DNA of 64,000 nt from the human T2T-CHM13v2.0 reference genome, Homo sapiens. Position 1 is the stretch's first letter, and each line of letters begins with the position of its first letter. This document shows, piece after piece, positions 42,116-54,322 of this stretch. The stretch is taken from the NCBI RefSeq assembly GCF_009914755.1, contig NC_060938.1. One strand, 5' to 3'. Both the position numbers and the translations under genes were made by a program. The notes under the pieces were generated by a model. It was not told the origin of the DNA. It saw only the letters and a list, made by a program, of their open reading frames with translations, and did not search any database.

Positions 42116-42226
42116 CTTCCAAATCCTTGGGTGCTTGGGCTGGGAATCAGGTCACTATGTGCAGGGAGAAGAGAGCAGCAGAGAGGGGACACACACTCAC
42201 GACTAGAAGCTGTGTCTTCACTGAGG

Positions 42227-42232
42227 TTTATT
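42227..42232 (-). terminator. CMA1: CMA1 polyadenylation signal AATAAA
   Basis: tttatt on + strand, about 140 nt after the stop codon. Confidence 0.9.
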
Positions 42233-42373
42233 GAGAGTTCTGTGACCTGTAGGATACTTCTGGAGGCTTAGGGTTGTGGCTGAGGGACCAAGGGTAGACC
42301 AGAATGAGTGGCACACACTTTGCTGCTCAGGTCCAGTTCCAGCTTCCCTTTCAGGCTGGCTCAGGATCCAGGA

Positions 42374-42517
42374 TTAATTTGCCTGCAGGATCTGGTTGAT
42401 CCAGGGCCGGTAATGGGAGATTCGGGTGAAGACAGCAGGGGGCTTTGCATCCGACCGTCCATAGGATACGATGCCCTGGGCCACCCCAGCACACAGAAGA
42501 GGGCCCCCAGAGTCTCC
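42374..42517 (-). CDS. CMA1: CMA1 exon 5 coding part (catalytic Ser, stop)
   Basis: ctacag|GGA GAC TCT GGG GGC CCT ... GCA AAT TAA. Confidence 0.98.
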
Positions 42518-45093
42518 CTGTAGGGGGAGGAGAGAGAGAAGAAGGTGAGCCCGGGAAGTCCTCCACTCCTGTCTGCCAGCCAGCTTGGAGTCACAGTGAG
42601 ACCTAAAGTCAGACCCAGGAGGTGGAGCTCCTCACTTATACATCTAGTTCTGATGCCCCTTCTTCCTTTCTTGGGACCGTCATTCACATTCTCCACATCA
42701 CCCCATGCCCCCAGTGCAGTAGACTGGAATGGATGGTCAGAGGCTGTCTTGGACCACGGGAGGACAGCAATTCCTGTGATGCTCACCCTGTCACTGACTG
42801 ACAACCTTCTGACCCCATCTCCTTCTAAGAGCATTCTGGTCCCTGAACAGTGAGTTTTGGAGAGGAAACCTAGTTGGAGGATCACCTTAAATGCAGATTT
42901 TGTCTTCCTGGGATTGCCCACACACAGCTGAAGATTGTGGTCAAAGTCTCTGAAGTGGCTGCAGGCCTGGGGATCCATGAGTCTCAGCTTCACCTCTTGC
43001 AGAGTGTCTGAGCCCGGCTTCAACACACCTGTTCTTCCCCAGCCAGCCACCCGGCACATTCTCCCAGGTGGGACAAAGTTGAATTGTGATGGGAAGGGGA
43101 GTGTCCCCACAGCCAGGGTCAGGCTGGCTTTCTCCTTCAACTGTGAAGGGAATGAAGGACCGTCAGTCCTCGAAATGGGCTCTGGACAGTTGGAGGTGAT
43201 CAGGGAGGGACAGGGTGAGTAGCTTCATGTTATAGCCAAGTCCTAAGAAAAATTCAGGGCAATGAGGACCTGAAGGAGAAGCTTAGGAGAATGGGAAGTG
43301 GAAAGGGAGAAGAGAGGTGTTGTCACCTTTAGTAACATGATATCGTGGTGAAGAGTAGAAGTGTTATATTTTGGATGACGGAATTGCTTTATAACCTCAA
43401 GCTTCTGCCATGTGTCTTCTTCCTCTGTTATGTTATGGGCTCCAAGGGTGACTGTTATAGACCTGTTGTGAGGAAGAAGGAAGGAAAAGGAGCGACAGTG
43501 ATGGCTTGGGGTTTCTTCTGAGGTGAGCTCATTCTGAGAAAAGAGGACTAAACTCTGTCACTGGGTCGCCGGACTCTACCCATCTCCCTTTTCATGGGCC
43601 ACTTGTGGCATTTGAGGGCTCAGGCTTAACTCATGAAAGAGCTTTCTCAGGAAACAGACACAATTTCTACGACCCCTGGAATTGCTGGGGACTGAACAGG
43701 CCAGGGAGGACTCAGGGGACAGGGTTCACACTTCCTAATTCAGGGAACCCTGCATGAGGGCCAGCCCCTGAAGCAGGAGATATCAGTTAAACGGGAAAGT
43801 GGGGGTCTCATGTAGACCCTGTTCTCTGCCTCCCATAAAATGATGGGTTCAGGACCCTGAGAACTAGAGGCCAGTGTTCTTGAAAAGGCCATAGAGGAAG
43901 TGGCCCTGAGACTGGGTGGGGCCCTGAAAAGTGAGCCGTGTGTCTTGAGTTGGGTAGGGGTGAGGGGTGCTACTGCAACAAGAGGGACCTTGGACAGGAC
44001 CTCCTTTTCCTCCGAAGGGGAGCTTAGCTCACAGTGACTGAGGCTCAAGGAACTATTCAAACACAGACTAAAGTCTTTCAGCCCAAGTCTTCCCTCTCCT
44101 GAAAGTTGACAAGACCCAGGACCCCCTCTTCAGTCCCCAGTGCAGGTGTATTCCTGGATGCTACTCTGGTTGTTCATCTCCCATTTGGAGATAAATAGAC
44201 CCTGTTGTCTCACCTTCCTGCACAATGAGCAGCCGTCAGCACAAAGTTCCGTCTTATAAGGAAACCACCACAAAATTTTGAGGGACCGTTGGAAGTTACA
44301 ATTTCCAGGTAGGCCATGTAGGGGCGGGAATGTGGCTTGCATTCTGTGCCCCCGATGATCTCCCCTGGAACAGAGCACCCCAGGGTTTGAACACGGCCAT
44401 AGATACTCTCTCCAATGAATGGACAAATTGGGTTAAAGCTGAGCTAGGCTTCCCTGGAATCTCATTCTCACCCTGTGTTCCGCCCATCTTCCCTCTCCTG
44501 TCTCCTGTATTTCGTATCTTTCCCCACCCATAACCTCCCAGGTGAAATCTCATTCTTGCCTCTGCTCCATTCTGATGTTTTCATCTCAGACTTCTCCCAC
44601 TCCCACCTTGCCCTGGCCCACCCTCCTCTGTCTCTGTGTAGGACCCACTGTCCAGGTTCCTGTTTTAGATTTCTCCATAGCTCTTGAGCATGGTCACAGA
44701 GTGAGAAAGTCACAAAGTAATGGGTAGCCCTGATGCTCAGAAGATTAAGAGGACATGTCTGTTTTCCTGGGGATACCCCTTTTCCTTCCACTTGCTCTGG
44801 GCTTTTCTACAATTGAGGTGAAATTCCTTGTTCCTGGGGGCTGTCCTAGGCTGTAGAGAATGGCAGTGGGTGGGGGTGGGGGTGGGGTGGCACACATCCC
44901 AAGTGGAAATTTCCCTCTGGGACTCTTGAAGAGAGATCTTGGAACCCTGTTTAGGAGTCAGCTATTTTCAGACTAAACATCTTTGTTTCAGGAGCTGATA
45001 CTGCAGATTTCAGAGGGAAGAACCCTGATACTCACCAGCTTCAGCTCTGGAGCACAAGAGAAAGAGCAGCAGGGGGAGAGGAAGAAGCAGCAT
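42374..45093 (-). CDS. CMA1: Chymase 1 (mast cell alpha-chymase); join(45036..45093,44214..44364,43327..43462,42886..43140,42374..42517), 247 aa
   Basis: Spliced exons of 58+151+136+255+144 = 744 nt give [39 protein letters not shown]...LTAAHC...DIMLLKL...[47 protein letters not shown]. All introns are GT-AG and the triad H66/D110/S203 is present. The sequence matches human chymase as I recall it. Confidence 0.99.
42886..43140 (-). CDS. CMA1: CMA1 exon 4
   Basis: [38 protein letters not shown]...[13 protein letters not shown]|gtgat; seen in ORF 42361..43140. Confidence 0.98.
43327..43462 (-). CDS. CMA1: CMA1 exon 3 (catalytic Asp)
   Basis: caacag|G TCT ATA ACA GTC ACC CTT GGA GCC CAT ... 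GAT ATC ATG TTA CTA AAG|gtgac. Confidence 0.98.
44214..44364 (-). CDS. CMA1: CMA1 exon 2 (GE propeptide, IIGG N-terminus, catalytic His)
   Basis: ttccag|GG GAG ATC ATC GGG GGC ... GCT GCT CAT TGT GCA GGA AG|gtgag. Confidence 0.98.
45036..45093 (-). CDS. CMA1: CMA1 exon 1 coding part (signal peptide)
   Basis: ATG at 45093-45091; [19 protein letters not shown]+G, followed by phase-1 donor gtgagt. Confidence 0.98.
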
Positions 45094-45145
45094 CTTCCCA
45101 GAGAGGCTGCCTGAGCAAATGCTGGTTTTCCTTTCCAGTCTTGGG

Positions 45146-45255
45146 TTTTATAACTCCCAGAAGGCAAGAGAGGGGCAAGGCTGGTAACCACAGGAACTGC
45201 ATGGTCACGTTTTCTTCTCTCACTCTGAATTGGCTGTTTCTGATCAGAAGTTCCC
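45146..45255 (-). promoter_or_regulatory. CMA1: CMA1 proximal promoter: TATAAAA (45146-45152) and RUNX consensus TGTGGTT (45186-45192)
   Basis: TATA box about 53 nt upstream of the ATG; RUNX motif read directly. Confidence 0.85.
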
Positions 45256-46583
45256 CTAGAATCACCCAGTGTTTTTCTAGAAAGGAACTTGAGCCCTGAA
45301 CTCCCAAGTGCTGGCTTCTCAGATGTACCCTCAACTATGGTGACTTTTCTGGAGTTGGGGGCAGGAAATGGAGGGACCATGTTTTTCTTTCCCAATTAGG
45401 GCAGCTTGTGAAAGGCCCACTGAACGTTCAGTGCAAAGACTTTTATGGCTATGTTCCATAGTCAGAAATGCATATTGCAGAGTCCCAGTGCATGCACATA
45501 TGTATGTGTGAGTATGTAAGCACAAATTAAAGGTTTCAGGAAACAATCTTTATCTTAACCATGTGCAGTGTTTTCTGTTAGTTTCCATTCCACTCCACTC
45601 CACTCCATTCCACTACACGTCAAAACTTGAGCAACAACCCCATTTAAATGATAATTCCTTGTAATTTGAAAAACATTGACCTGGATCTCTCTCCTCCTCT
45701 GAACCACATGTTTTTGACAGAAGAGAGATCCAAGGAGGGTAGATGTGGGAAAAGAACAGACCCTAGGACAGAACTTTATGCAAAGAGCAATTGGGATTGG
45801 AATTAGCATTTTCTGAGAGTCTAGGCGTATCATATATTGTCACAACTCTTAGATATATTATTACTTTCACGGCAACCCTATCAATATGTATTACCATTAT
45901 GATCATTATCATGTCATGATAGTCAATTTTTTAAATCAGCTATCATAGCTTATGGTTCAGAAATAGATTTTCCTGATATCAAATCAAGGTCCCTTTCTGC
46001 TCTAGCACTAGAGAGAAATAGAGGAATAGAGTCCTGCCAATGTGCAGGGGAAGTAAAGATGTAGAAGGGTGTTTGCTCCAGAGAGGTTGGGGTTTCCTAC
46101 TGTTGCATTAAGAATCAAGCTTTCCACAACAACCTGGGGACACACCATTACTGTCACTTTACAATTGTAGAATTGATACTCAGACCCATTAACATGACAA
46201 AGATCACACACCTTATAATATCAGAAGTGGGTTTCAAGCACATAGCTTTTATTTTCCCTGGACTTACAGAAAGCAGTCCACATGGTGGACTGTCATTTCT
46301 CTTGGAGATTTATAAGGCATTTAGTTCAAAGACGGGGATGAGTAGTGTATAAGTGCCTTTCCCAAATCATCTCACTATGCCCTTGGTCTCAGGTTGGGCT
46401 TGTGACCAGAGTGATCCACTCCTTAGTATATATTGGCCAGGTCCTCTGTTGCTTTTAACTTAATTTCCCAAGTTCTACCTACAGCTCTAACTCTCTCTAG
46501 AATAAGACATTTAAACACATCCGTAATGTCTTTTCAAATCTGGTCTTCTTAAGTGTCCTTGTACCACTTTCTTCACTCTCTCG

Positions 46584-46766
46584 GGGGTTGCCAGAGAATA
46601 TTCAGAATGCCCAGTTAAATTTGTATTTCAGATGAACAACAAATCATTTTTTAGTTAAGTATGTCCAAATATTGAATGGGACACACTAATACTAAAAAAT
46701 TGTTGTTTATCTAAAATTTGAATTTAACTGGAATCCTGTATTTTTTATTTGCCAAAGTTGGCAACT
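46584..46766. mobile_element. MER53 (palindromic hAT MITE) in the CMA1 upstream region
   Basis: gggttgccag...ccagttaaatttg / aatttaactgg...ttggcaactc long inverted arms. Confidence 0.8.
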
Positions 46767-49075
46767 CTTCTCTGGGCATTTCACCATTAACAGAACAGAA
46801 GAGAATCCGGAGCTGGAGAACTCTTGTCTTGTGGTCTTACATCAGTTAGACCAAAAAATCAGAGGCTTAAACAAATCAAAGCTGTTTGCTTTCACTGATA
46901 TAATTAGAAATTGAGAGGCAGGTAGTCTGGGGCTAGTAAGACAGCTCCACAGCATCAAGATTCAGATCCACCAAGACTTAAGTTTTGCTTCACCTGCCTG
47001 GCTGAGGGTGAGGAAATGGAATAGGTATAGCCCCAGTCAGGGGACCAATTTCAGAAACGAGGACTGCACTATCTGCTCACATTTCCTTCTTTGCTTTGTC
47101 ATATGTATACCTGTGTATTTTAAGAGATTTCCTTTTTCTCTTTCTTCTTCCCCCTTTGGTTATTTTATATATAGCATGTTGGTAGTGAACTTTATGGTTT
47201 AGGGTACAGTTATCAAGTTGGGAGACTAGAGAATATCAAATTGAAAATGTGACCAAACTATTGTTGGAGCAGGTATCACCTAGAGACACAGTACTTGAAG
47301 TTAAAAGCAGTAACTGTTGAGACTGGGTTATTTCAGTTCTGCTGAGTCAAGTCTAATTTTCCTTTATATAAAAGATAGTAAAGATTATGTTCAGTGGGAT
47401 AATTTTTGTTCTTGGAAACTTTAAGTGTGGCAAAAGAATGAATGTTGATGTGGGGCAACCAAGTGATGGATTGTAGTGGACATTTTCCATTTATATGGCT
47501 CCTTAATGTCTCTGGAACACCCTTCCTGTATTAGAGGAATTCCCAATGATAACTTTGCCTTACTAAGGTAGAATCCACAAACTTCCATTCCCAGTTTCTC
47601 TTGCATTTAGGTCATGTGACTTAGACTCTGTTAATCAGATAAAGGGGTGTACAATTTGACTTAGAAGGGAGTAACATGAGGGAGCTATTATCATGTGGAA
47701 TTAATTCTTCTAGTGAGGGTGACTGGTAGAGGGGTCAGGGTTTGTGGAAATAATTGATGATTCAGATATCCAGTGCTGCCTAGAATGTTTGGGCCAAACA
47801 AGTGGTAGTAGGACCTTTGCTGCACAGTGTTATGGTGTATTTTGGACATTGCTTCTGGCTAGTTTGACTCTAGACATAATCCTACAGCATCTTGGGAAGC
47901 AGCTGTTGAGTATGTATAAGAAAGGACTTACTAACAATCTGTTGCTATAAAATAAATGTGTGATTAGTGGAGGTAAGTGATTTCTCATTGCGGCAGATAC
48001 TCAAGTAGAGGTTGAATCAAGTCTTGATTCACAGTTAGTAGGACAGAAAATTTGGGCCTGATGTAGAAGCACTGGCATTTAAATAATGGCAATGATTCCT
48101 TAGTAACTATAATGCAGAGGGATCATTCCTTCTCTGAGTTTCCGAACATTGTATTAACTGTGCTAGTATTCACTTTGACATTTAAGGCATGCAGTTTGCT
48201 CTGCAGTTAGATGGGGTGAGTTTGAATCTTGGTTCTGCCACTTAGCTATGTGTCTGAACTTAGGAAAAATTTTAAAGTTCTCAGCCTTAGTTACTGCATC
48301 CATAAAATATGAAGAATGATACAGTACAAGGATTTTTTTCAGAATTAAATATGATGCTCAATGTGAAATGCCACATGATTGGTTCTTAATAAACGTTGGT
48401 TTTATTCCTTTGTGTTTTACCTTGTGCTGCCATATCACCACTTGATGGATAATTGATAGATATATCCTCATTGGCTATAATTTTTTTGATGAAAGAATAA
48501 ATCTTATACTTCCTCTAAATTCTCCTAAACACATTACAGATTAACATCTGTTATGGAATTTGGTTATTTCATGCTTTGCATGTAACATCTTTTTTCTATT
48601 CATTCATGTGCTGCCAGGCTGTTTATTATTCTCTGAGTAATGACTGTGTCTTTCTTGATTGAGCATTTCTATGCAACTTGTTTTAACTCTCGAGTTGGCA
48701 GGTATAAAACACCTAGAAACTTTTGTTGCAGTCTCTTCTAAAGAACTCCTGTGGGTCAGGGACAGCTGATGGCATGGGCTCATACTGAGCAGTAGTGCAG
48801 TGGAGCAGACAGAGTACATCCTTCATGGCACTGGCAGATTTTCCTGAAGCAGGCTGGAGCTCACTCTGTGTTTGCCCTCGCAATAAGTCCTGCCTGTTTC
48901 TATAGTTTCTGAATGACCAAGTTTTTCTGAATTTAAGGTTTATGTTTAATAGCTGCTGGCTTACATTAAACATCTATAAAGCAATTTAAGAGAATTACTT
49001 TCAAATTGATTTATTTTACGATACTCTTGCCTTCACTCCTAACACAATAGCTCACTTTTGAATTACTGCACTCTG

Positions 49076-49215
49076 CACAATATTTCTGAGTGGACAGTGT
49101 ATCCAGGAGAATGAGATATGGAGAGATCCTTGGAGATTATTCCCAGTGTTGGGGCAGGAGGAAGATTTCTCAGCGTGTGTGTCCTTATTTCTTTTCCAGG
49201 CTCTTCAGCACAAAC
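49076..49215 (-). pseudogene. Relic exon 5 (very degenerate)
   Basis: tttttag|GTT TGT GCT GAA GAG CCT (eroded GDSGGP) ... ctccaaggatct...ATC TCA TTC TCC TGG ATA (PP..ISFSWI). The Trp codon is 110 nt from the acceptor versus 114 in CMA1. Confidence 0.35.
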
Positions 49216-49509
49216 CTAAAAACATTTTGCTTTTTTAAGGGGTTCTTCCTAAGATTTCTCTTTCCACTCACCATTTCTGCAATGGGCTAATATTAAAGTA
49301 GGGAGAGTCTCTGAGGGTGCCCTTTATCATAAGTTTGGGCAAAGCTCTTTATGTGGATGGTTTCTGCTGTAGTCTCTGAGATGCTACTGCTCCCATTATC
49401 ACTCTCAGCTTCACTCAGGCAGGCCTACTCCTTGGGTCATCATCTTCTGTAACACTGTAGCCATGATGATTTTATCTTTTCTGTGTGGGCTATGGGGGAG
49501 GTTGATAAG

Positions 49510-49782
49510 GCAACAACTATTCTTTCCATCCCAGGGGTCCACAAGATGCTTGTTTAATCTGTGGTTGGTGTCAGTGGTGGAGCTGGTGCTCACAGGCTCA
49601 GCCCTGATCCTCATCATCTTCACTTCTGGTTCCTGTGAGCCAAGCTGTTAGAGTATAGTTCCTGGATTGAAAGGAACTATACTCTAGTTGTATTCTAGAT
49701 GGTCCTGCAATGGCTTGATAGCTCCTTACTGGGATTACCATATTGTGGGATTTCTATATTGTGCTGGGGCCTTAAAGGGTGT
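49510..49782 (-). pseudogene. Relic exon 4 (degenerate)
   Basis: ag|+3 codons+AAG GCC (KA, 49773), CCC AGT AAG (PSK, 49733), ATC AAG CCA (IKP), GAA GTG AAG ATG (EVKM, 49626), TGT GAG CAC CAG CTC CAC CAC (CEHQLHH, cf. CESDLRHY), DPWDGKNS (49539, cf. DPEIKKTS). Confidence 0.45.
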
Positions 49783-49930
49783 CTCATTGGTCTAGTCATT
49801 CTTGGTTGCAAGGAGATTCCTTAGTCTCTTGAAGGGCAGATGCTGCCCAGGATGCAGGTATGGTTTTGGTAAGGCTGATGGGGTAGATAGTGTGAAAGGG
49901 CAAATTATGTGAGACTCATGAGGCAGGTGG

Positions 49931-50086
49931 TATCAACAGCATGTGTCCATGGCTACAGGGTAGAGCCAACCCTGCAGGGGTCGTTTAGGGATTTTTCAAT
50001 AGTGCTTCTTTCCAACCACATTTGGAAGCAAGGGCAGAGGGAGCAAATCAGGACAACGGACAGCTCCCAGCCCTTCACTTTTTTTT
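49931..50086 (-). pseudogene. Relic exon 3 (degenerate)
   Basis: ttcccag| + 16 nt + CTG GGA GCT (LGA; same 16-nt offset as CMA1 exon 3). ATC CCT AAA CGA CCC (IPKRP, cf. GZMB IPVKRP) at 49992-49978. GACACATGCTGTTG at 49947-49934 equals GACATCATGCTGTTG (DIMLL) minus one base. Confidence 0.55.
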
Positions 50087-50409
50087 CTGGGAAATGCCAG
50101 GTTTTTCAAAGAAAATGAGTTGGCCTCTAGGGAAGGTAAGGAGGATGGAAATGCAGGTCAAGAATGGCAAGATACAGGGGGAGTGGACATGGAGAGATGT
50201 ATTAATAAATTGCATATTGATTATGTATTAACTGGGATCCCTGTTAGGAAACTCCTCTCCCCCAACCTTTTTTCCCCCCTGAAACTTGAAGTTCTTTTTC
50301 AGAATTTCAAACATTCCCTTTAGTGATCTTTAATATTACCAAAGGTGGAGAAATCAATATTTCACTATCAGTTAATGACTGAAGTAAGGAAGTGGCACTG
50401 GCTGCTCAG

Positions 50410-50553
50410 GGAATGGGTCAGTGGGCAGTAGAAATGGCAGCCACACAAACAGGCCTTCAATGTGTGTTTTTAAGGGGACTTTTTGGGCATACCCCATCAC
50501 CTAAGTGCATCCCTAAAGTCTGGTCAGGAGCACAGGTCTTCTGTATGACCTGG
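50410..50553 (-). pseudogene. Relic exon 2 (degenerate)
   Basis: GGT CAT ACA GAA GAC CTG TGC TCC TGA CCA GAC reads GHTEDLCS*PD versus GHEAKPHSRPY. ACT GCC CAC TGA (TAH*, for AAHC) lies 97 nt after the Y-equivalent codon (93 in CMA1). It is followed after exactly 8 nt by ctgag, a mutated gtgag donor. Confidence 0.5.
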
Positions 50554-51040
50554 CTACAGAAAAAAATGGCTTCTCTCTGGTTATGGTCCATGTTAATTTT
50601 TTTAAAATTGAGAATCATAACATACATACATAAGAGTGAAAAAAATTTTTTCTTCAAATGAATAATTATAAATTAAACATTCATGGAATCATTAACCAGC
50701 TTGATTTGTCATTTCCTTTAGACATTTCATCATGTCCTTATCCTGCCCTCTTCAATATGAGAGAAGGGCCATGGATAAGAATTGGGGGCATTTTGAGCAA
50801 AGCAGGTTAAGGGAAACTTCCAAAGCCAGTTTCTGATTCTTTCTCCACCCTACTCTTCTTGTCCCTGGGACACTGTCATCAACTGTGGAAAGTATATGAC
50901 TCTTCTAGGTATAGCTCTCCCTTTGGAACATATGCAAAGATATCCTGCAGCATTATTTTAGGCTCTTCTCTGACCCAGGTTAATGATTTTGGAATAGGGG
51001 CTGAGGACTTACAGGACAGGAAGTTACACCCTAGACTCAC

Positions 51041-51095
51041 CAGATGTGGCTTCAGGAGGCAAGAGGAAGACCAGCAAAATGATCAGGGCCTGCAT
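51041..51095 (-). pseudogene. Relic exon 1: signal peptide MQALIILLVFLLPPEATS+G
   Basis: gggaaaATG CAG GCC CTG ATC ATT TTG CTG GTC TTC CTC TTG CCT CCT GAA GCC ACA TCT G|gtgagt. This is 18 codons + 1 nt, the exon-1 architecture of CTSG, GZMB and rodent Mcpt genes. Confidence 0.88.
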
Positions 51096-51158
51096 TTTCC
51101 CTGCGACATTGCCCATACTGACCATGGCTAGTTCTGTCACCCCTTCACTGGGCCCCGC

Positions 51159-51270
51159 TTTTATAGCCCTAGAAGTAGAAGAAAGGGGATGGCTTGAAGC
51201 CACAGAAACCACCTGATCTCATTTCTGTCTTTCATGCTGGCATGGTTATCTTCCTCATCAGAAATTCTCA
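51159..51270 (-). promoter_or_regulatory. Relic promoter homologous to the CMA1 promoter (TATAAAA 51165-51159; RUNX-like TGTGGCT; GAGGAAGATAA ETS/GATA at 51246-51256)
   Basis: tttctgtggcttcaagccatcccctttcttctacttctagggctataaaa versus CMA1 ttcctgtggttaccagccttgcccctctcttgccttctgggagttataaaa: 39 of 52 columns identical by manual alignment. Confidence 0.85.
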
Positions 51271-51427
51271 TGACTCTACTCTCTGCTCTGGGAGTGTAGA
51301 AGTTGTGGTGAGTTCTCAAGAGTCCTAGGATGAGGGATGCACACTTGTCACTCAGAAAAGCTCTCTAGAAGTAGGTAGTAGCATGCATGGAGGGGGGAGT
51401 TTTAGGTGCTGTAGCACCCATTCTAAG

Positions 51428-51647
51428 CAGGGATTAGGGAACTTTTCTGTCAATCACCAGGTAGGAAGTACTTTCAACTTTGAGAGCCAAATGGTCTCTG
51501 TGGCAACTATTCAACTCTGCTGTGTAACACAAAAGCAACCATAGACAATTTGTAAACCCTGGATGTGAACATGTTGCAGTAAAACTTCATTTACAAAGGG
51601 AAGTGGGAGGCTGATTTGGCCTGCAGACCATAGTTTGCCAGACCCTG
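51428..51647 (+). mobile_element. MER58A (hAT-Charlie MITE)
   Basis: caggg...ggtctctgtggcaactattcaactctgc...gatttggcctgcagaccatagtttgccagaccctg. Confidence 0.8.
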
Positions 51648-52859
51648 ATCTAGGTATCAGCCCTTCTTTCAATTCTAATAATCAGAAGAAAGGAATGTGG
51701 TGGTGAGAGGAGGAAGGAAAAAGGGAGAATTTATTTTTTCAAAATTTTTCTTTCTTTCTATATTTTTATTGAAACATAATTCACATACCATAAAATTACC
51801 CTTTGAAAATATACAATTCAGTGCCTTTAGCAAACTTACAAGGTTGTGCAACCATCAACACTATTTAATCTAGGACATTTTCATCACCCCATAAAGAAAC
51901 CTGTATTCATGAGTAGTCACTTCCATTGTCCACCTCCCCACAACCCCTGGCAACAAATAATCTACTTTGTCTCTATGTATTTTGCCTATTCTGGACATAA
52001 ATGGAATTATATAATATTTGGCTTATTATGTCTGGATTCTTTCACCAAAAATAAAGGGTGAATTTACAATGTGTTTGGCACTGCTAGGACTTTACATGTA
52101 TCTTCTCATTTAATCTTTATTAACAGTCTTTTGGGGTTAGTATTATTATACACAATTATGAAGCACTCAGTGGAAGTTCAGAATGTCACATAGCAGCACA
52201 GCCAAAATTTAATTTGTCTGGTTCTGAAACTCATACTTTTTCTATTCCACTAATTTGAGTAATAAGGGTTGTGGGAGGAAGAGTTAGTCCAATGAATGGA
52301 GAAAAAAATGGAATGTATAAAGGAGAATATTTGTGTTCTCTGGAGGGGTTGGGGTAACCCACTTGTGCATTGAGAGTCACACCTGGCTTGAGAATAAATT
52401 GATACCTGCAGCTGTCATTATTTGAAATTATCCTGGACTCTCATTACTTTATGTGCCACTGAGGAAGAATAAAATTGTTCTAAATTAAACAATAATGTGT
52501 CATTAATTATCAGGTTCATTTCTGTTGTGAAGAGGTTAAAATGAGAAATATTGTGCATCTTTTAACCTATGACACATGGTAGAGTTCAGGTGTGTGCTTT
52601 ATCTCATTCACCCTCAAATCAACCCTGAGAAATATTATTGTGTTTATTTTACAGATGAAGAAACTGAGTCTCAGATAATTTGAATCACTCGAAAAAACTT
52701 TGTAAGCTATAAACATAACTAGGTATCGAACTTATATCCAATTGCATGATCTTTCCTTACATCATCCTGCTGTCCTGGACTGTAGAAGCAGAGCAAAACC
52801 AACAACAAACCATTTCCCTCAATTTTATAAGGCACAATCCATATTATTATGATTTTCAA

Positions 52860-54322
<1,463 letters not shown>

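What the first reader, a model, noticed from the sequence alone, without database searches (positions are those of the whole stretch)
49010..51270. Hidden five-exon fossil of a lost chymase-locus protease gene next to CMA1
Seen, on the minus strand about 4-6 kb upstream of CMA1, in order: (1) a TATA promoter alignable to CMA1's; (2) an intact 55-nt exon 1, MQALIILLVFLLPPEATS+G|gtgagt; (3) exon-2 remnant GHTEDLCS*PD...TAH*, then 8 nt and ctgag; (4) exon-3 remnant ag|16 nt-LGA...IPKRP...D(I)MLL; (5) exon-4 remnant KA...PSK..IKP...EVKM...CEHQLHH...DPWDGKNS; (6) exon-5 remnant ending ISFSWI; (7) AATAAA at 49015-49010. Implied introns are about 490, 323, 148 and 294 nt. Established: the human chymase locus is described as four genes (CMA1, CTSG, GZMH, GZMB). 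Rodent beta-chymases (Mcpt1/2/4/9, whose signal peptides begin MQALL) lie between Cma1 and Ctsg. Inference: this is a unitary pseudogene, possibly the primate-lineage remnant of a beta-chymase or another family branch. Some exon-3/4 motifs look more granzyme-B-like. I do not know of an annotation for it but cannot check.
Basis: partly seen in the sequence, partly recalled or inferred. Interest (0 to 1): 0.92.

Follow-up and report, generated by a model that had tools for sequence, protein, structure and literature searches.

The report
Beta-chymase promoter and first-exon relic

Summary
On the minus strand at 51267-50918 there is a single-copy TATA promoter, an open 55-nt first coding exon (MQALIILLVFLLPPEATS+G) with a perfect GTGAGT donor, and the start of intron 1. 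These align to the CMA1 promoter, exon 1 and intron-1 start (61% over 362 nt, E 2e-13). The signal peptide is of the beta-chymase (mast cell protease 4-like) type. It scores a median of 62 against 28 beta proteins and 28 against 27 alpha chymases.

Frameshift- and intron-tolerant profile alignment, tblastn and DNA alignment used CMA1, CTSG, GZMB, GZMH and beta-chymase queries. None gave more than shuffled DNA at the stated places, and no colinear chain appeared (10 of 100 shuffles did as well). A power test shows that exons decayed by up to 20% would have been found.

It is equalled by 9 of 1000 shuffles.

Best reading: a 5' stub of the beta-chymase gene, left after the human lineage lost exons 2-5. 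A predicted intact copy exists in mouse lemur. The papers I could read say the primate locus holds no pseudogene traces. Interest is modest.

The parts
51137..51267 (-). Proximal promoter relic, with TATAAAAG at 51165-51158. If the TATA-to-start distance equals CMA1's 29 nt, the transcription start would be near 51136 (inferred).
   Evidence: blastn alignment to the CMA1 promoter (repeated). The TATA box was read. Promoter similarity is specific to CMA1: CTSG, GZMH and GZMB match only the 63-81 nt of exon-1 coding sequence.
51041..51136 (-). Exon 1 relic. The ATG homologous to CMA1's start is at 51095. The coding part 51095-51041 reads MQALIILLVFLLPPEATS plus the first base of a split Gly codon (phase 1). 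In-frame upstream ATGs at 51125 and 51116 give MVSMGNVAGK.
   Evidence: sequence. (tblastn: 70% identity over 27 aa to Hyaena P0080, 64.5% over 31 aa to Microcebus P0122). (13 best matches all beta-like; beta median score 62, alpha 28). (profile score 81.5).
50918..51040 (-). Donor GTGAGT (51040-51035) and the first ~120 nt of intron 1, still alignable to CMA1 intron 1.
49050..49142 (-). Weak exon-2-like trace, of uncertain reality: E*SPRISPYLILLDTLSTQKYCAECSNSKVS against beta exon 2 [31 protein letters not shown].
   Evidence: Beta exon-2 profile scores 38.7 against shuffles of 28.1 +/- 3.0, with 9/1000 as high and 0/18 real-DNA control chunks as high. tblastn E is 0.004 at best, with pinniped sequences. 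There is no DNA-level signal with CMA1 exon 2 (164/200 shuffles as good), and three competing registers exist.

Best explanation
This is the 5' stub of a beta-chymase gene (the lineage of rodent Mcpt1/2/4 and the 'mast cell protease 4-like' or CMA2 genes of other mammals). That gene once lay between CMA1 and CTSG in the same orientation.

The proximal promoter, exon 1 (signal peptide) and the first ~120 nt of intron 1 survive. The four exons that encode the protease domain are gone from the interval, most simply through a deletion in the human (probably haplorhine) lineage after the split from lemurs. No protease can be made from what remains, so it is an inert truncated unitary pseudogene.

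Shown: the homology and subfamily of the stub, its single-copy state, and the absence of detectable exons 2-5 anywhere from CMA1 to CTSG.

Inferred: deletion as the mechanism, the timing, and orthology with the lemur gene.
For: 1. Promoter, exon 1 and intron start align to CMA1 at E 2e-13. CTSG, GZMB and GZMH match only the exon-1 coding part, with E 4e-5 to 0.015.

2. The peptide MGNVAGKMQALIILLVFLLPPEATSG scores a median of 62 (range 42-101) against 28 beta-clade proteins, and 28 (range 20-55) against 27 alpha chymases. The 13 best of 191 proteins are all beta-like.

3. The beta clade is one branch with SH-aLRT 100, 28 of 28 rows. It holds rodent Mcpt1/2/3/4 together with predicted proteins of Microcebus, Tupaia, bats, carnivores, rhinoceros, hedgehog, lagomorphs and xenarthrans.

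4. No haplorhine beta-like protein is among the best 120 hits of either family search. Two strepsirrhine ones are: Microcebus P0122 and a disrupted-looking Prolemur P0190.

5. tblastn with the lemur and tree-shrew proteins finds only CMA1's exons and this exon 1 in the 64-kb window. In the next 50 kb it finds only CTSG. The whole-genome search finds chromosome-14 locus matches only at CMA1, CTSG, GZMH and GZMB.

6. Power test: CMA1 exons decayed in silico by 10-20% substitutions plus indels are recovered in 36-40 of 40 trials by the same method. Exon 1 differs from the beta consensus at only 7 of 26 residues (read).

7. The 401-nt stub is single-copy in the T2T genome.
Against: - No genome of another mammal could be read here. 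Orthology to the lemur gene, the shared position and a deletion breakpoint are therefore not shown.
- The exon-2-like trace at 49142-49050 (9/1000 shuffles) could mean that some gene body survives in a very decayed state, which a clean deletion would not predict.
- An exon-5-like trace 19 kb upstream, outside the window (3/1000 shuffles in its 5.9-kb chunk), hints that the history may be more complex.
- The method misses exons with 40% or more divergence.
- The genome search scores only the best candidates.
Confidence: 0.8

Rival explanations
1. A decayed but complete or near-complete gene body. The true exon 2 would be the trace at 49142-49050, giving an intron 1 of about 1.9 kb, and exons 3-5 would be eroded beyond recognition or lost piecemeal further downstream.
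For: - The exon-2 profile score of 38.7 is the highest of 46 chunk-strands between CMA1 and CTSG. It is reached by 9/1000 shuffles and 0/18 real-DNA controls.
- The trace is on the right strand and downstream of exon 1.
- The sequence just before it resembles an acceptor plus GEII, and a GTGAG lies near its end (read).
Against: - Identity to the beta consensus is only about 32% over 31 residues, or 45% over 22 in another frame. Exon 1 keeps 73%.
- A loss later than the lemur split should leave exons as well kept as exon 1, and the power test shows such exons are found.
- The best tblastn partners are pinniped-specific variants.
- There is no DNA signal with CMA1 exon 2, and three incompatible registers exist.
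- After correcting for four exons tested, p is about 0.04.
Confidence: 0.13
2. The five-exon fossil exactly as the first reader laid it out: exons at about 50551-50418, 50090-49930, 49780-49500 and 49200-49090, with a poly(A) signal at 49015.
For: Some motif spacings (EVKM ... DP) equal those of GZMB exon 4, as read.
Against: - Those segments were chosen by eye, so the fair search space is the whole region. There exon 4 and exon 5 are matched by 55/200 and 88/200 shuffles.
- The chain score is matched by 10/100 shuffles.
- GZMB, GZMH, CTSG and CMA1 exon queries give nothing.
- The 'exon 5' resembles exon 2 instead.
Confidence: 0.02
3. The stub is not inert. It is kept because the promoter still works, for example as a mast-cell regulatory element for CMA1, as the start of a non-coding transcript, or as an alternative first exon spliced to CMA1 exon 2.
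For: - The TATA box, three in-frame ATGs, the open frame and a consensus donor are all intact.
- Exon-1 coding sequence joined to CMA1 exons 2-5 would be one open frame of 246 residues. Any family member would give this, because the intron phase is shared.
Against: - The RefSeq table supplied by the hub shows no transcript, exon or enhancer at 50918-51267. Both CMA1 transcripts lie within 42211-45123.
- Seven of 26 residues differ from the beta consensus, slightly more than in working orthologues (5 of 26 in Microcebus, 2 of 19 in Tupaia; read). That fits neutral drift.
- An 85-nt open frame can survive by chance.
Confidence: 0.07
4. A partial duplicate of the 5' end of CMA1 itself, or of a granzyme or cathepsin G gene, that never had a gene body here.
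For: Only a promoter and exon 1 are seen. Its closest human sequence is the CMA1 5' end.
Against: - It is only 61% identical to CMA1 DNA.
- Its peptide, including the MG.VAGK leader and LLPPEA, is of the beta type and not the alpha type.
- Granzyme and CTSG promoters do not align to it.
Confidence: 0.03

Closest known systems
Beta-chymase genes (rodent Mcpt1/Mcpt2/Mcpt4; dog CMA2; cat 'MCP1'; 'mast cell protease 4-like' predictions in other mammals)
   Same: Signal-peptide sequence type (MG.xAGKMQALxLLLxFLLPPEAGA). Chymase-type TATA promoter. Phase-1 intron after exon 1. Position next to CMA1 on the CTSG side in the same orientation.
   Different: Only the promoter, exon 1 and the intron-1 start remain. 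No exon for the catalytic domain (His, Asp, Ser) is detectable, so it cannot encode a protease.
Human CMA1 (alpha-chymase), 42211-45123 on the minus strand
   Same: Paralogous 5' end: 61% identity over 362 nt spanning the promoter, exon 1 and the start of intron 1. The TATA box and ATG are in matching positions.
   Different: CMA1 has all five exons and is expressed. The relic's signal peptide scores like beta sequences, not alpha sequences (median 62 against 28).
Truncated unitary pseudogenes (lineage-specific gene losses that leave a partial gene at the ancestral locus)
   Same: A single-copy, non-processed remnant (it has a promoter and an intron donor). A predicted working counterpart exists in other species and no working copy exists in human.
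   Different: Most catalogued unitary pseudogenes keep most of their exons with stops or frameshifts. Here the surviving piece is undamaged and the rest is absent, so homology-based pseudogene pipelines that need a long protein match would miss it (inference).

Membership tests
Beta-chymase gene lineage | Exon-1 / signal-peptide sequence groups with beta rather than alpha chymases, granzymes or cathepsin G | tested here: met
   beta n=28, median score 62 (range 42-101); alpha n=27, median 28 (range 20-55); the 13 best of 191 family proteins are all beta-like. Only 19-28 residues are available, so no tree of the relic itself was built.
Beta-chymase gene lineage | Chymase-type promoter (homology beyond the coding part of exon 1) | tested here: met
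   the 362-nt alignment to CMA1 includes about 130 nt upstream of the start site. CTSG, GZMB and GZMH align over only 63-81 nt of exon-1 coding sequence. No beta-chymase promoter DNA was available for comparison.
Beta-chymase gene lineage | Five-exon serine-protease gene with the catalytic His, Asp and Ser on exons 2, 3 and 5 | tested here: not met
   no exon 3, 4 or 5 above shuffles. Only one weak exon-2-like trace was found. The relic is a fragment of such a gene, not a member that can encode the enzyme.
Beta-chymase gene lineage | Location between CMA1 and CTSG, same orientation as the locus genes | tested here: met
   The hub table gives CMA1 at 42211-45123 (-) and CTSG at 110405-113137 (-). 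The relic lies at 51267-50918 (-). The position of beta genes in other species is taken from passages of PMC8537139 and PMC4646688. Alpha and beta proteins share a scaffold length in at least 6 species, which fits linkage but gives no distances.
Unitary pseudogene | Working orthologue in other species and no working copy in the genome that holds the relic | tested here: inconclusive
   Predicted full-length beta-like proteins exist in Microcebus (P0122), Tupaia (P0129) and many other orders. The human genome search finds only CMA1, CTSG, GZMH and GZMB in the locus. Orthology by synteny could not be tested, because no other mammalian genome DNA was at hand. The proteins are predictions, not shown to be expressed.
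Processed pseudogene / transposable element | Intron-less copy, or a multi-copy interspersed sequence | tested here: not met
   The relic keeps a promoter and an exon-intron junction. The 401-nt stub matches only itself in the genome. In 45130-51035 the only multi-copy element among the scored matches is at 46577-46773 (40 of 1246 first-look candidates were scored, so old repeats may be missed).

The most novel reading that the evidence does not exclude
The stub is still a live promoter with a usable first exon. In mast cells it would start transcripts that either splice from the donor at 51041 into CMA1 exon 2, giving an in-frame prepro-chymase of 246 residues with a beta-type signal peptide, or act as a cis-regulatory element of CMA1. 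That would explain why the TATA box, ATG, open frame and donor are all undamaged while the rest of the gene is gone.
Probability: 0.05. Interest if true: 0.6.

Novelty: new member of a known kind. Interest (0 to 1): 0.3.

Why it matters
Mouse mast cells rely on several beta-chymases (Mcpt1, 2, 4) that humans lack, and this complicates the use of mouse models for chymase biology and chymase inhibitors.

[quoted passage not shown] This relic is physical evidence in the human genome that the gene was once there. Together with predicted intact beta-like genes in a lemur, a tree shrew, bats, carnivores, a rhinoceros, a hedgehog and xenarthrans, it places the origin of the beta lineage before the placental radiation. 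It places the loss inside primates, after the strepsirrhine split, which is a dated and testable gene-loss event.

It is a small correction to a specialist picture, not a new kind of biology.

Tried and rejected
- CMA1 protein tblastn against 47000-53000: only noise outside exon 1.

- blastn of the CMA1 gene against 48500-51800: apart from the 5' unit, all hits have E of 0.035 or more. The best is 49629-49602, which resembles the end of CMA1 exon 1 plus its donor (E 0.035; 0.07 against the whole window). I treated it as chance.

- DNA Smith-Waterman with CMA1 exons: exon 3 at 48629-48555 and exon 4 at 48877-48762 each reach 5/200. They lie in the wrong order and look poor by eye, so I rejected them.

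- A second signal-peptide-like stretch at 50479-50402 (E 0.02 with P0098): blastn of the exon-1 unit against the whole window finds no second copy, so I rejected it.

- Weak tblastn hits at 47862-47719 and 45619-45542 (E 0.14-0.46): not reproduced by the profile tests.

- Human GZMB, GZMH and CTSG exon translations as queries: nothing. This rejects the 'granzyme-B-like' reading.

- Literature searches for a reported human relic found none: 'chymase locus/pseudogene/human/beta-chymase', 'chymase/pseudogene/exon 1/primate', 'CMA2/chymase', 'mast cell chymase locus/lineage-specific diversification' to 2012, 'unitary pseudogene/mast cell protease' and 'Mcpt4/human ortholog/pseudogene/degradome'. 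The two 2006 Immunogenetics papers of Gallwitz and Hellman (recalled, not seen) are not in the searchable library. GENCODE and other pseudogene catalogues could not be checked.

- Earlier findings of this scan were not open to the session.
Full report
**What is in the sequence**

These features lie on the minus strand:
- A TATA box, TATAAAAG, at 51165-51158.
- Three in-frame ATGs at 51125, 51116 and 51095.
- An open frame that from 51095 reads MQALIILLVFLLPPEATS plus the first base of a split codon, ending at 51041.
- A consensus donor, GTGAGT, at 51040-51035.

Sensitive blastn aligns 51267-50918 with the CMA1 promoter, exon 1 and first ~120 nt of intron 1 (45253-44912). Identity is 61% over 362 columns, E 2e-13. 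The TATA boxes and the ATGs at 51095 and 45093 sit in matching columns. This is the only such pair in the 64-kb window. The 401 nt around the relic match nothing else in the T2T genome, so it is not a repeat.

**Which gene it came from**

I pulled family proteins from the large protein database, starting from CMA1 exon 4. Among them were proteins named 'mast cell protease 4-like' whose N-termini read MG.xAGKMQALxLLLxFLLPPEAGA. The human frame from 51116 reads MGNVAGKMQALIILLVFLLPPEATSG.

- tblastn gives 70% identity over 27 residues with the Hyaena protein (E 1e-7).
- It gives 64.5% over 31 residues with a Microcebus murinus protein (E 4e-7 in the 7.9-kb region; E 2e-6 against the whole window).
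- The 13 best of 191 family proteins are all of this type.
- The peptide scores a median of 62 (range 42-101) against 28 such proteins, and 28 (range 20-55) against 27 alpha chymases.

A maximum-likelihood tree of 60 rows (quick IQ-TREE, SH-aLRT only) puts all 28 in one clade with support 100. That clade holds rat and mouse Mcpt1/2/3/4 together with predicted proteins of Microcebus, Tupaia, bats, carnivores, a rhinoceros, a hedgehog, lagomorphs, an armadillo and an anteater. I chose the rows by hand from about 190 fetched proteins and left out fused or partial models.

At the DNA level the relic's promoter aligns only with CMA1. CTSG, GZMB and GZMH, fetched from the same genome, match just the 63-81 nt of exon-1 coding sequence (E 4e-5, 0.002 and 0.015). 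It is not granzyme-like.

- CMA1 protein finds nothing there.
- I wrote a protein-profile-to-DNA aligner that allows frameshifts, stops and introns. Its profile was built from 20 beta-like proteins.
- I ran it on the minus strand of 45130-51035, against dinucleotide shuffles.
- The colinear chain of exons 2-5 scores 45.5, against 37.7 +/- 5.4 for shuffles. Ten of 100 shuffles do as well.
- Exon by exon, the best hits for exons 3, 4 and 5 are equalled by 133, 55 and 88 of 200 shuffles. They are equalled by 10, 7 and 11 of 18 real-DNA control chunks from the rest of the window.
- 'Exon 4' (4/500) and 'exon 5' (16/500) stand out only when the search space is the hand-picked segment itself. That is the expected result of picking by eye.
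- Fifteen exon translations of human CMA1, GZMB, CTSG and GZMH give nothing by tblastn (all E 0.03 or more, on both strands, not colinear). They give nothing by the frameshift aligner either. The lowest count is 17/200, and that hit comes from translated intron.
- AATAAA occurs 10 times on this strand in 7.9 kb.
Only 40 of 1246 first-look candidates were scored, and all non-self matches fell at 46577-46773.

**Is the gene body elsewhere, or merely decayed?**

- tblastn with the lemur and tree-shrew proteins over the whole window finds only CMA1's four large exons and the relic exon 1.
- In the 50 kb from the window's end to beyond CTSG it finds only CTSG.
- A six-frame search of the whole genome finds locus matches only at CMA1, CTSG, GZMH and GZMB.
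- A power test embedded CMA1 exons, decayed in silico, in shuffled DNA. The same aligner recovered them in 36-40 of 40 trials at 10-20% substitutions (with indels), in 12-30 of 40 at 30%, and rarely at 40% or more.
- Exon 1 differs from the beta consensus at 7 of 26 residues. That compares with 5 of 26 for Microcebus and 2 of 19 for Tupaia (read), so it shows modest decay.
- If exons 2-5 were present and as old as exon 1, they would have been found.

A predicted full-length beta-like protein exists in a lemur, and no haplorhine one appears among the best 120 hits of two searches. The loss is therefore most simply placed after the strepsirrhine-haplorhine split. My recollection, not a tool result, is that neutral divergence on the human branch since then is roughly 10-15%. 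That is inside the range where the method has full power. Deletion of exons 2-5 is therefore the best reading. It remains an inference, because no other mammalian genome DNA could be read here.

**Loose ends**

Two weak protease-like traces remain.

The first is at 49142-49050, on the right strand and downstream of exon 1.
- Its profile score of 38.7 is reached by 9 of 1000 shuffles and 0 of 18 real-DNA chunks. It is the top of 46 chunk-strands between CMA1 and CTSG.
- Against it: identity is only about a third.
- Its best tblastn partners are pinniped-specific variants.
- CMA1 exon 2 gives no DNA signal (164/200).
- Three incompatible registers can be drawn.
- I give it about one chance in seven of being real.

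The second lies outside the window (L011:6013-6096, window-equivalent 70013-70096, minus strand). It resembles the end of beta exon 5, including the beta-specific ISPYVP. It is reached by 3 of 1000 shuffles in its 5.9-kb chunk, but this is borderline over 65 kb. If either trace is real, the locus history is more complex than one deletion.

**Comparison with what is known, and novelty**

I read passages of two Hellman-group papers, not the whole texts.
[quoted passage not shown] Six full-text searches found no report of a human relic. The RefSeq table supplied with the finding has no row there. I could not check GENCODE or pseudogene catalogues, nor the 2006 Immunogenetics papers (recalled only).

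The relic is thus probably unreported. Its kind, a truncated unitary pseudogene left by a lineage-specific loss in a fast-changing immune protease cluster, is well known.

**Verdict**

The stub is real, and the beta-chymase origin is well supported. The five-exon fossil is not. Interest is modest: a concrete, datable trace of a gene loss that separates human from mouse mast-cell biology.

The boldest reading not excluded is that the intact promoter, frame and donor are still used. One form of that is an alternative first exon for CMA1, since the joined frame is open over 246 residues. The shared intron phase of the family would give that result anyway, and nothing here shows the exon is used.

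Noticed in passing
L011:6013-6096 (window-equivalent 70013-70096, minus strand; outside the window): An exon-5-like trace, VCSRFLKARTPAYILFISPYVPITQHILDT, against beta-chymase exon 5 with the beta-specific ISPYVP. Profile score is 41.0 against shuffles of 28.7 +/- 3.2 (3/1000 in its 5.9-kb chunk), and it is the top of 46 chunk-strands in the CMA1-CTSG interval. It is borderline after correcting for 65 kb. It lies 19 kb upstream of the exon-1 relic, so it would belong to a different gene copy or a rearrangement.
   Followed up: partly
window 46577-46773: A roughly 190-bp interspersed repeat that matches many places in the genome on both strands (palindromic, MITE-like). It accounts for all 72 non-self matches listed when 45130-51035 was searched against the genome.
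   Followed up: no
window 51125-51096 (minus strand): In-frame upstream ATGs give MVSMGNVAGK ahead of the MQAL start. The same leader (MGS.AGKMQAL) is predicted in beta-like genes of bats, rodents, rabbit and hedgehog, and MGS/C..EKM in some alpha chymases. This suggests a conserved 5' leader or a longer signal peptide in the chymase family. Human CMA1 lacks it.
   Followed up: no
proteins P0122, P0129, P0190 and others: Predicted beta-chymase-clade proteins exist in far more orders than the 2021 review states: a lemur, a tree shrew, bats, carnivores, a rhinoceros, a hedgehog, lagomorphs, an armadillo and an anteater. The Prolemur simus model (P0190) has odd insertions and missing stretches, so it may be a broken gene or a poor model.
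   Followed up: partly
window 49629-49602 (minus strand): A 28-nt stretch 82% identical to the end of CMA1 exon 1 plus its donor (E 0.035 in the region, 0.07 in the window). Probably chance.
   Followed up: partly
window 48877-48762 and 48629-48555 (minus strand): Weak DNA similarity to CMA1 exon 4 and exon 3 (each equalled by 5/200 shuffles). The two lie in the wrong order for one gene and have many mismatches. No protein-level support.
   Followed up: partly
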